From Octopus vulgaris (taxonomy: Eukaryota): 64,000 nucleotides of DNA. Shown here piece by piece: positions 22,077 to 53,372 of the stretch. The stretch spans positions 133,238,001 through 133,302,000 of the forward strand of contig OX597818.1 of NCBI GenBank assembly GCA_951406725.2, read 5' to 3'. The notes under the pieces are model-generated. The model saw only the letters and a program-made list of their open reading frames with translations, was not told the DNA's origin and did not search any database. Numbering within the stretch: position 1 is the stretch's first letter; every line of letters starts with the position of its first letter. Position numbers and translations under genes: made by a program.

Positions 22077-22480
22077 ACAGGAGTGGCTGTGTGGTAAGTA
22101 GCTTGCTTACGAACCACATGGTTCCAGGTTCAGTCCCACTGCATGGTACCTTGGGCAAATGTCTTCTACTATACCCTCAGGCCGACCAAAGCCTTGTGAA
22201 TGGATTTGGTAGATGGAAAGTGAAAGAAGCCCGTCATATATATGTATATATATGTATGTATGTATGTGTGTAAATGTTTGTGTGTCTGTGTTTGTCCCTA
22301 CCAACATCGCTTGACAACCAATGCTGGTGTGTTTACATCCCTGTAATTTAGCGGTTCGGCAAAGAATCTAATAGAATAAGTACTAGGCTTACAAAGAATA
22401 AGTCCTGGGGTTGATTTGCTCGACTAAAGGCGGTGCTCCAGCATGGCCACAGTCAAATGACTGAAACAAGTAAAAGAGTA
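22077..22480 (+). mobile_element. tRNA-derived SINE family A
   Basis: Family consensus. Confidence 0.9.
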
Positions 22481-22523
22481 ATGTTTTTTTATACAATACC
22501 TAAATAATATTTAATTATAAGGA

Positions 22524-23089
22524 TATTCTTTTATTCTTTTATTTGTTTCAGTCATTTGACTGCAGCCATGCTGGAACACCACCTTTAGTCAAACAAATTG
22601 ACCCTAGTACTTATTCTATCAATCTCTTTTGCCAAACTGCTATGTTACGGAGATGTAAACACACCAACATCAGTTGTCAAGCAATGATGGGGAGACAAAG
22701 ACAGACACACAATCATATATATATACATATATATATATACATATATATACAATGAGCTTCTTTCAGTTTCCATCTACCAAATCCACTCACAAGGCTGTGG
22801 TTGGCCTGAGACTATAGTAGAAGCCCCGAAAGGATGAAAGGCAAAGCCGAGGTCGACTTTGCCTTTCATCCTTTCGGGGTCGATAAATTAAGTACCAGTT
22901 ACGCACTGGGGTCGATGTAGTTGACTTAATCCCTTTGTCTGTCCTTGTTTGTCCCCTCTGTGTTTAGCCCCTTGTGGGTAGTAAAGAAATATATAGTAGA
23001 AGACACTTGCCCAAGGTGCCATGCAGTGGGATGGAAAACAGAACCGTGTGGTTGGTAAACAAGTTACTTACCACACACACACTCCTGTG
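22524..23089 (-). mobile_element. SINE family A interrupted by SINE family C (22824-22991)
   Basis: 11-bp TSD tatagtagaag at 22813-22823 and 22992-23002. Confidence 0.85.
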
Positions 23090-44780: not shown

Positions 44781-44962
44781 TTTATGAAAGAATGGAGTTG
44801 AACGACTTGTTCTAGTCTATGCCCTAGGGATGTAACTTCAACTGTGTTCTTTCTGATGTGAATTTGCTACCCAGGTATCGGTTATCCTTCGAATTATCCT
44901 TAATAAGATAATTCATTCAACTACTCAAATATATATATATATATACATACACACTCATACAT

Positions 44963-45002
<40 letters not shown>

Positions 45003-45310
45003 TATATATATACATACACACTCATACATGCACACACACACACAGACACACACACACATATATATATATTATATATATATATATACATACACACTCATAC
45101 ATGCACACACACACACATACATACACACAAACAAACACACACACACACACATATATATATATACATAAGCATATATATTGTTTTCATATTTCGCTTAGGC
45201 ATTGCAAGACTAATATTCTGGTGTAGACATCAGCATATATATGCTTCACAATGAACTGTTAGACAAGTAGAGAGTGGTAATAAGAAAATGAGATGACAAA
45301 GAAAAAAATG

Positions 45311-45451
45311 ATGATTATGTTATGGACTTCATTAGCTTACAGCTGTAAGCTCTGATGAAGCTATAAGGTGTTATTCAGGCACTCAACTATGAATCCACTG
45401 TAGCTTATAGCAGAAACAGCAGCAAGCTAATGAAGTCCATAACATAATCAT
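45311..45451 (+). ncRNA. Hammerhead ribozyme closed by a 36-bp inverted repeat (type III-like topology)
   Basis: CTGATGA 45352-45358, 8-bp helix II GCTATAAG/CTTATAGC, GAAA 45413-45416; arms 45311-45346 and 45416-45451 pair with 2 mismatches. Confidence 0.75.
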
Positions 45452-45488
45452 TTTTTCCTTTGCCACCCCATTTTCTTATACACACACA

Positions 45489-45796
45489 CACTATCCGACT
45501 CGTGGCCGATGCCAGCGCTGCCTCGACTGGCTTCCATGCTGGTGGCACGTAAATTGCACCAATCCAACCGTGGCCGTTGCCAGCATTGCCTGGCACCTGT
45601 GCGGGTGGCACGTAAAAAGCACCCACTACACTCACGGAGTGGTTGGCATTAGGAAGGGCATCCAGCTGTAGAAACATTGCCAGATAAGACTGGAGCCTGG
45701 TGCAGCCTTCTGGCTTCCCAGATCCCCGGTCGAACCGTCCAACCCATGCTAGCATGGAGAACGGACGTTAAACGATGATGATGATGATGATGATGA
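45489..45796 (+). mobile_element. SINE family B
   Basis: Family consensus, (GAT)n tail. Confidence 0.85.
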
Positions 45797-52056: not shown

Positions 52057-52108
52057 GTCTCTGATGAAGGGGTATAATTAATAAATATCCTAGAAACAGC
52101 TGTAAGAC
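52057..52108 (+). ncRNA. Type I hammerhead ribozyme (Penelope/retrozyme-type), intact core
   Basis: GTCT-CTGATGA-A-GGGGTAT..ATATCCT-A-GAAA-CAGCTG-TA-AGAC: helix I GUCU/AGAC, 7-bp helix II, palindromic helix III CAGCUG, GUA cleavage triplet. Confidence 0.85.
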
Positions 52109-53372
52109 CTATCTATAAATGCTGTAATATCTACACAGCCTTGGTTCGTTATCTTATTACGCAAAAAATTCTTGTATATATATATATATATATGGCATCT
52201 ATAGTATTTATATATGAGATTTTGTTGATATATATATCACCCCTCTCAGTTGTTTGCAATGTTTCTGTAGCAGTATGGCACTCCTCTATATTTAGCGTGC
52301 TACAGTGTGACATTCTCTATAGTTAGAGAGACAATCAGAGAGTGAGGAATATGTATGAGAGAGAGAGAGAAAGGAGCATGCATGAGAGAGAGGAGCATGT
52401 GTGAGAGAGAGTGATAAGGCTTCAAAAAATAAATTTATCAAACATTATAGTTATTTTTCACACTATTTATAGCTACTGAAATTACATGGGAACATTGAAA
52501 ACAATGTAACAAACAGAACCACACTCTACTACATTAATCAAAGGATAACAGACTGCTGTGGTCATGGCTGGAATGCCTTTATTCCCACAAAAGCTGGATA
52601 GTTTAACTCTTGTTTCATAAAAAAAATAACCATGTCAACATCCAAAACAGATTTGGAAATCTAACAAAAACCAATATAAATTAAATTAAATCAAATATGT
52701 AATATGTAATTTTGGAAGACAGAGCCGACCAAAAAAGAAAGACTTGATTTATGAACATCATATACATGTATATTTGTTAGTTTTACTAACTCCATCCTCT
52801 GACATTACACTGATTGTCCCAGAAAACCAATCAATCAGGAAATCCTCCAGACATTTATTCATTTATTTTTTTGTTTATGATTCAGTCATTTTTATACTTG
52901 GGAAGAAATTGCATAACTTGTTTATTAATCAGGGTATGTCATTAATTTTAAGTTGGATATTTCACCACAAATTTGATAGTATGTCACCTAAATCTGACAA
53001 TAGTTCAGTTACAACTGAGAGGGAATTTTATATAGGTAGGATTACTAGATGTGCAAGAAATAACAGTCGAATCTTCTCCTTATCATACGTTACTATCTTC
53101 AAAAAAGATAGCGTAATCCTAGATACACTGTGTCTGAAATGAGCAAGATGGGCATGGATAGAATGCCATTTTATCATGAATCTACTTGAAAAAAGCTGAC
53201 TAAACAACTATAACAACAGTAATTGAGCAGTACTAGAATGCATCTCAACTTTCTTGGCACTGAGCAATTAAGAGAAAACTATCCTTTTGGATTGGATCCC
53301 CAATCAAAAAATAATTTAAATTCAACAGAGTTAACGAGCAAAACATATTTCAGATATACTATAGATTCTGAG

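What the first reader, a model, noticed from the sequence alone, without database searches (positions are those of the whole stretch)
45311..45451. Hammerhead re-wired from type I to type III by a fold-back, with a palindromic helix I
Seen: arms 45311-45346 and 45416-45451 form a 36-bp hairpin (2 mismatches) that can act as helix III, presenting GUA at 45345-45347. It is followed by AGCU, CUGAUGA, an 8-bp helix II and GAAA. The type I reading is broken downstream (CAGCAG-CA instead of CAGCUG-UA, compare 52097-52104), whereas the type III core is intact. Helix I is just the self-complementary AGCU, so it could form only between two molecules. The junction AGCTTACAGCTGTAAGCT (45334-45351) is a perfect 18-nt palindrome. 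Inference: template switching at the helix III palindrome circularly permuted the ribozyme. This would be a snapshot of topology switching and of how inverted pLTRs arise.
Basis: partly seen in the sequence, partly recalled or inferred. Interest (0 to 1): 0.75.

Follow-up and report, generated by a model that had tools for sequence, protein, structure and literature searches.

The report
Permuted hammerhead relic in Penelope insertion
This is an old, back-to-back insertion of a common repeat that is likely the end piece of a Penelope-type jumping gene; its one-off joint rearranges a self-cutting RNA motif into a layout that lacks one required helix, so it likely cannot cut and is mostly ordinary.

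Summary
The sequence observations hold. The locus is one decayed copy of a large repeat family (631 exact hits to a 19-mer) that carries a type I hammerhead motif with a palindromic helix III, as in Penelope-like element (PLE) end repeats. A head-to-head inverted 5' arm is routine in this family: 32 of 91 copies have one, with breakpoints scattered from -50 to +183. In 30 of 32, exactly one end carries a ~95-nt tail, which fits two cDNAs primed on both sides of a break rather than one long fold-back. This copy's joint is unique in 2.8 Gb. It probably arose by a 5-nt snap-back at the helix III palindrome plus a GCT microhomology. That gives a type III core, but helix I collapses to 4 nt. The proposed dimer would also have to swap the long helix III; it is predicted 9-15 kcal/mol uphill, against a median of 2 for parental dimers. 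The arms differ by about 9%. Verdict: a real type III look-alike, most likely inactive. Inverted PLE ends with junction palindromes are published, and earlier scan notes report this layout for other repeats in this genome.

The parts
45186..45346 (-). Inverted, 5'-truncated copy of the family end repeat (family positions +64 to +222, with C3 = 0), including the ~95-nt tail
   Evidence: Alignment to family majority sequence
45347..45479 (+). Forward, 5'-truncated copy of the same repeat (about -5 to +128), carrying the hammerhead core and ending at the short, tail-less family end
45280..45479 (.).
45334..45351 (.). 18-nt junction palindrome: 13 nt of arm ending in the family's own 8-nt helix III palindrome, plus 5 nt (likely snap-back synthesis) ending in the GCT shared with the helix I 5' strand
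   Evidence: mechanism inferred
45345..45347 (+). GUA triplet in type III register (U16.1 = 45346 can pair with A15.1 = 45416)
45348..45351 (+). AGCU: both strands of the parental helix I collapsed into 4 nt; no intramolecular stem-loop possible
   Evidence: Sequence
45352..45359 (+). CUGAUGA core plus extra A (position 9.1)
45360..45411 (+). Helix II, 8 bp (45360-45367 / 45404-45411), with a 36-nt loop region
45412..45416 (+). Extra A, then GAAA core
45417..45428 (+). Decayed type I helix III and cleavage site (two substitutions, at 45421 and 45423, the latter at U16.1), followed by the helix I 3' strand AGCU
44930..45165 (.). (CA)n/(TA)n microsatellite tract on the left; a short (CA)n run also follows at 45480-45491

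Best explanation
The locus is an old head-to-head insertion of two truncated copies of a hammerhead-bearing repeat, likely a Penelope-like pseudo-LTR, whose single-copy joint places GUA-AGCU before CUGAUGA and so mimics a type III hammerhead that likely cannot cleave because helix I is only four unpaired nucleotides. Shown: the family, the two-copy anatomy, the uniqueness of the joint, and the one-long-end/one-short-end rule. Inferred: the element's enzyme primed two cDNAs on the two sides of a break in a microsatellite, one from the +222 start site and one from the +128 site, and their truncated ends were joined. Inferred, about 60%: the arm's end stopped at the self-complementary helix III, snapped back, copied 5 nt, and then annealed through GCT to the helix I 5' strand of the other cDNA. 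The same microhomology that permutes the core also deletes helix I. The locus has since decayed neutrally.
For: Family: 107 and 631 exact hits to two 19-mers, with 0 in the reversed controls; 2006 first-look candidates; median pairwise identity about 80%. An adjacent inverted 5' arm occurs in 32 of 91 exact-anchor copies and 0 in the downstream control, with inner ends from -50 to +183. Exactly one long end in 30 of 32; in the 25 not forced by geometry, 23 of 25, Fisher p = 3e-5. This matches the published PLE layout (PMC8557442 and PMC3846280 passages) and the two RT start sites and extension of both strands shown for PAc (PMC11167929). The joint 19-mer is unique at <=1 mismatch. Of 9 arm-plus-core hits only this one has an A after GU; the other 8 continue with T, reading on into the complement of GAAA. 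A looser pattern gave 3 hits, the other 2 from another family. Folding: an open-core monomer has P about 1e-6 or lower, and the double hammerhead is +9.3 to +15.4 kcal/mol over two monomers in 5 of 5 fragments, against a median of +2.2 for 25 parental copies. The family substitution spectrum is nearly strand-symmetric.
Against: No RT/GIY-YIG ORF could be linked to this family, so PLE identity rests on architecture. ViennaRNA ignores tertiary contacts, the dimer structures were hand-built, and 3 of 25 parental controls also scored +11.8 or worse. PLE hammerheads can be protein-assisted (PMC11167929). Both substitutions near the core fall in the type I site and leave the type III core and the first 5 bp of helix III intact, as selection would. 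The 5 junction nucleotides can also be read as the forward strand with one later G-to-A change (AA is present in 19 of 115 other copies). No target-site duplication could be read.
Confidence: 0.85

Rival explanations
1. The joint made a functional type III hammerhead that cleaves as a dimer sharing a palindromic helix I.
For: Core, GUA register and helices II and III are intact. The double-hammerhead structure is pseudoknot-free and can be drawn. Dimeric cleavage via a palindromic helix III is established for PLE hammerheads (PMC4209133; PMC6765202 passages).
Against: It needs strand exchange of a 36-67-bp hairpin for a gain of 4 bp, predicted +9 to +15 kcal/mol. UCUG (45351-45354) is predicted to mispair with CAGA (45411-45414), hiding the core. 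The parent's helix I extension, a likely contact for loop II, is gone. The locus is single-copy and there is no sign of tandem arrangement. There is also an extra A before G12.
Confidence: 0.05
2. The whole inverted arm arose by one fold-back (self-priming or template switch) at the helix III palindrome, and this is the general origin of inverted pLTRs.
For: This is the longest junction palindrome of 32, and one other copy has a 14-nt palindrome. Self-priming at junction palindromes is proposed in PMC3846280. 5 of 32 inner ends fall at +64 to +78.
Against: The arm reaches +222 while the forward copy ends at +128, so it cannot be a copy of the same cDNA. 30 of 32 insertions have unequal ends of two fixed kinds, and 30 of 32 junctions have no palindrome of 12 nt or more.
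Confidence: 0.05
3. The hairpin is a MITE-like or otherwise re-mobilised unit, or was co-opted as a double-stranded RNA source.
For: It is a long stable stem (-85 kcal/mol for 45280-45480). In the other family, two loci share one inversion joint.
Against: The joint is unique and the arms have diverged about 9%. The two loci also share flank sequence, so they look like a duplication.
Confidence: 0.05

Closest known systems
Insertions of endonuclease-bearing Penelope-like elements with an inverted 5'-truncated pLTR and a tail (Adineta Pen2/Pen2a, PMC3846280 passages; overview in PMC8557442 passages)
   Same: Head-to-head inverted truncated copy, tail at only one end, microsatellite target, palindrome at the inverted junction (an 18-bp palindrome is described at the 5' end of a Pen2 pLTR).
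   Different: The tail here is about 95 nt rather than 30-40 nt. No ORF was found for this family. The junction falls inside the hammerhead and permutes it.
PLE-associated type I hammerheads with a short palindromic helix III (PMC4209133, parts 1-2 of 4 read; Lunse et al. known only through the review PMC6765202)
   Same: The parent motif has a long helix II, an extra nucleotide after A9, G10.1-C11.1, a short helix I and a palindromic helix III. Motif pairs on opposite strands 100-700 bp apart were already noted in Schistosoma.
   Different: An extra A also sits before G12. In this copy the type I site is mutated and a second GUA lies upstream.
PAc (Poseidon of Anolis carolinensis), PMC11167929, parts 1-2 of 4 read
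   Same: Two RT start sites that define the tail, cleavage and extension of both target strands, and a predicted dimer. These fit the one-long/one-short end rule seen here.
   Different: PAc is an intact element tested in vitro. The parts read do not quantify end asymmetry in inverted genomic copies.
Type III hammerheads of plant LTR retrozymes (PMC7229834 passages)
   Same: Order of strands: cleavage triplet, CUGANGA, helix II, GAAA, with helix III open.
   Different: Those have a real helix I stem-loop contacting loop II and occur in paired LTRs. This one has no helix I and is single-copy.

Membership tests
Type III hammerhead ribozyme | CUGANGA and GAAA core in type III order after an NUH triplet | tested here: met
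   GUA 45345-47, CUGAUGA 45352-58, GAAA 45413-16
Type III hammerhead ribozyme | Helix III with U16.1-A15.1, formed by the 5' and 3' ends | tested here: met
   5 bp, then two mismatches, then a long stem; predicted P(U16.1-A15.1) about 0.5
Type III hammerhead ribozyme | Helix II closed by G10.1-C11.1 directly before G12 | tested here: inconclusive
   An 8-bp helix is possible, but an extra A45412 precedes G12 and the predicted probability of G10.1-C11.1 is 0.000
Type III hammerhead ribozyme | Helix I stem-loop between H17 and C3, with loop I-loop II contact | tested here: not met
   Only 4 nt (AGCU) lie between A17 and C3, which would need 1 bp with a 2-nt loop
Type III hammerhead ribozyme | Self-cleavage at NUH | not testable with these tools
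   Needs an in vitro assay; folding predicts it is disfavoured
PLE-type dimeric type I hammerhead (parent family) | Palindromic short helix III followed by UH and a helix I 3' strand | tested here: met
   631 exact genomic hits; commonest form in 116 copies; broken in this copy
EN+ Penelope-like element | ORF with RT and GIY-YIG endonuclease upstream of the pLTR | tested here: inconclusive
   The family was followed about 500 nt upstream into microsatellite-like sequence and no ORF was reached. The young 784-aa PLE family in the genome is not linked
EN+ Penelope-like element | 5'-truncated copies with an adjacent inverted copy | tested here: met
   32 of 91 copies
EN+ Penelope-like element | Tail at only one end of the insertion | tested here: met
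   30 of 32
EN+ Penelope-like element | Target-site duplication or microsatellite target | tested here: inconclusive
   Both ends abut (TA)/(CA) tracts; no duplication is readable
MITE | Many copies sharing the same terminal inverted repeats and internal structure | tested here: not met
   The joint is unique and family breakpoints are heterogeneous
Retrozyme (LTR or tandem non-LTR) | Two or more hammerheads in direct repeats | tested here: not met
   No direct upstream copy within 330 nt in this locus; the only other core in the window with this layout, at 52061, is from another family

The most novel reading that the evidence does not exclude
The symmetry of a PLE hammerhead (palindromic helix III, near-palindromic helix I) steers end-joining during insertion so that a type I ribozyme is permuted in one step into a type III one. 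This copy would then cleave as a double hammerhead that shares a 4-bp palindromic helix I with fully swapped helices III, a dimer geometry I did not find described (paper searches).
Probability: 0.05. Interest if true: 0.6.

Novelty: new member of a known kind. Interest (0 to 1): 0.18.

Why it matters
As read here it is a neutral relic. It is still a neat natural example of how routine PLE end-joining can reorder a ribozyme's strands, and of why such a product is likely stillborn. The more useful by-product is at family level: 30 of 32 inverted insertions carry the tail at exactly one end. This is genomic support for two-ended priming from two fixed RT start sites and counts against self-priming as the general source of inverted pLTRs; it can be tested in the PAc in vitro system. 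If the copy did cleave as a helix-I-sharing dimer, it would add a new dimer geometry and a concrete path between hammerhead topologies.

Tried and rejected
MITE-like family: rejected, the joint is unique. The exact patterns miss decayed copies, so a few unseen similar joints are possible.

A true type III ribozyme elsewhere in the family: none found. L130 has GUU but no helix I, and L197/L199 are arms of another family that read through the core.

Parent ORF: not found by translation of upstream flanks, two upstream walks, an ORF scan of all loci or tblastn with the young PLE ORF. The GIY-YIG fragment beside copy L060 (Pfam 18.5 bits, below the cut-off) belongs to an unrelated young family. 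One search used wrong coordinates and is uninformative.

A-to-I editing fossil: this copy has 5 T>C changes against about 2 expected, but 3 of 116 copies have as many and the family spectrum is nearly symmetric, so it was dropped.

Expression: no RNA holder listed. A run guessed to be RNA showed family pieces but no listed piece across the joint. This says nothing either way.

Rfam: no hammerhead match. One search crashed and was redone; one search had only one control passing its filter. Host-gene context was not established (ORF list showed no obvious exon; not scanned against Pfam). Lunse et al. (RNA Biol 14:1499) was not available, so whether an extra A before G12 is among its variants is unchecked. 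Supplements were not read.

Full report
Observation. The stem is longer than stated: 45280-45346 pairs with 45416-45479 with 6 mismatches in 64 pairs and one 3-nt gap. Helix II has an unpaired A on both sides (45359, 45412). One DNA contig bridges the joint (45275-45393, 1 difference), though that run may be the assembly's own sample. Rfam reported no hammerhead at E<=1.

The family. The window lies in a 2.8-Gb genome; an earlier scan note calls it octopus, which I did not test. The right half of the locus belongs to a large family: 2006 first-look candidates, 107 exact hits to the 5' core 19-mer and 631 to the helix III 19-mer, with none in the reversed controls. In 116 distinct copies the usual form is a type I hammerhead: a 3-4-bp helix I that can be extended by a second 6-7-bp segment, CUGAUGA, an extra A, an 8-bp helix II, an extra A, GAAA, the palindromic helix III and the GUA site. 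This is the architecture described for PLE hammerheads that work as dimers (PMC4209133, parts 1-2 of 4; PMC6765202 passages), apart from the second extra A. Median pairwise identity is about 80% and substitutions are nearly strand-symmetric (A>G 3.7%, T>C 4.7%, C>T 9.3%, G>A 8.9%), as expected for old, neutrally decaying copies. I could not link the family to an RT/GIY-YIG ORF, so 'PLE' is inferred from architecture.

Anatomy of this copy. With C3 as position 0, the locus is an inverted copy of +64 to +222 (45346 down to about 45186) joined head-to-head to a forward copy of about -5 to +128 (45347-45479), inside (CA)/(TA) tracts. This layout is routine. Of the 107 exact-anchor matches, 91 distinct copies were analysed, this one included; the rest were unlisted, not fetched or duplicates. 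Of these, 32 have an adjacent inverted arm, against none in a downstream control. Their inner ends scatter from -50 to +183.

The outer ends fall into two classes, near +128 and near +222. In 30 of 32 insertions exactly one end is long; among the 25 where geometry does not force this, 23 of 25 (Fisher p = 3e-5). A few short forward ends (26-90) may be later truncations. Inverted truncated copies, a tail at one end and microsatellite targets are described for PLEs (PMC8557442 and PMC3846280 passages). PAc extends both target strands and starts reverse transcription at two sites that define the tail (PMC11167929, parts 1-2 of 4). I infer two cDNAs, one from each start site, joined at their truncated ends. 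A single fold-back cannot explain this copy, because the arm holds about 95 nt that the forward copy lacks.

The joint. It is unique: 1 hit at up to one mismatch; 1 of 9 arm-plus-core hits with an A after GU, the other 8 continuing with T into the complement of GAAA; and 1 of 3 hits for a looser pattern, the other two from a different family. Exact patterns miss decayed copies, so a few more may exist. Only 2 of 32 junctions have a palindrome of 12 nt or more.

Two readings explain the 5 nt after the arm. They may be the forward strand in its AA variant, seen in 19 of 115 other copies. But 0 of the 30 and 2 of the 60 nearest relatives have AA, so this needs a later point change. Or the arm's 3' end, which stops exactly at the end of the helix III palindrome, snapped back and copied 5 nt, creating a GCT match to the helix I 5' strand of the other cDNA. 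I favour the second at about 60%. Copy L108 has an arm ending at nearly the same place, followed by what looks like a short templated duplication. Palindromes at PLE inversion junctions, and self-priming as their cause, are already proposed in PMC3846280.

Can it cut? Type III order, core and helix III are present, but only AGCU lies between A17 and C3, so helix I cannot close within one molecule. Pairing AGCU with AGCU of a second molecule is not enough. In a hammerhead, C3 follows the base that pairs with N1.1, so the core must come from the partner, and helix III must then also be intermolecular. That means swapping a 36-67-bp hairpin for a gain of 4 bp.

ViennaRNA puts this dimer 9.3-15.4 kcal/mol above two monomers in all five fragments tried, and the monomer hides the core by pairing 45351-45354 with 45411-45414. 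A similar calculation for the 25 of 116 parental copies with an intact core gives a median of +2.2, with 13 at +3 or less and 3 at +11.8 or more. The model omits tertiary contacts and protein help, so this lowers the odds rather than excludes activity.

Age and selection. The arms differ by about 9%. Runs labelled as two other organisms hold 74-78-nt contigs of the left arm with 1 difference and no gap across this copy's private 3-nt duplication. This suggests, but does not prove, that the insertion predates those lineages; none of the listed pieces bridges the joint. The loss of U16.1 in the type I site is what neutral decay of about 8% can give by chance. I found no positive sign of selection.

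Comparison and verdict. It works like, and most likely is, a standard PLE-type inverted insertion. It is not a member of the type III hammerheads, because a defining feature (helix I) was tested and not met. Metazoan hammerheads are mostly type I (PMC7229834 passages), and natural permutations are a live topic (PMC10085705 passages), which is why a working example would interest specialists. My paper searches listed no report of a type I to III switch at a PLE junction, judged from titles and abstract starts. I also read part 1 of 5 of bioRxiv 10.64898/2026.07.22.740005, which did not bear on the joint. Earlier scan notes describe the same inverted hammerhead-bearing layout for other repeats in this genome; a sequence look-up found none for this family. 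Interest 0.18; new member of a known kind.

Noticed in passing
family-wide; e.g. L042, L053, L082, L099, L056: In 30 of 32 inverted insertions exactly one end carries the ~95-nt tail (ends near +128 and +222), pointing to two-ended priming from two fixed RT start sites.
   Followed up: yes
window 52057-52175: A second, unrelated repeat family with an intact type I hammerhead motif of the same design (palindromic helix III, extra A on both sides of helix II), ending at a (TA)n tract.
   Followed up: partly
L197:1421-1650 and L199: Two loci on different contigs share one inversion joint of the 52061 family. The left flank of one matches the reversed right flank of the other, as in a duplicated locus whose interior flipped between the inverted arms.
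   Followed up: partly
G000, e.g. L179; pairs at C2:146676418/146678573 and C3:76888557/76891344: [quoted passage not shown] Its 3' end has a hammerhead-like fold with a non-standard core, read by eye.
   Followed up: partly
window 22396-22616: A long hairpin formed by two oppositely oriented pieces of the common SINE-like repeat; the Rfam MIR841 hit is far below its gathering score.
   Followed up: no
L108 junction: An arm ending in the helix III palindrome, followed by an apparent 9-nt templated duplication of the core start.
   Followed up: partly
window 45421-45470: Five T>C changes in the forward copy, four inside the stem; upper tail of the family (3 of 116) but not distinctive.
   Followed up: yes
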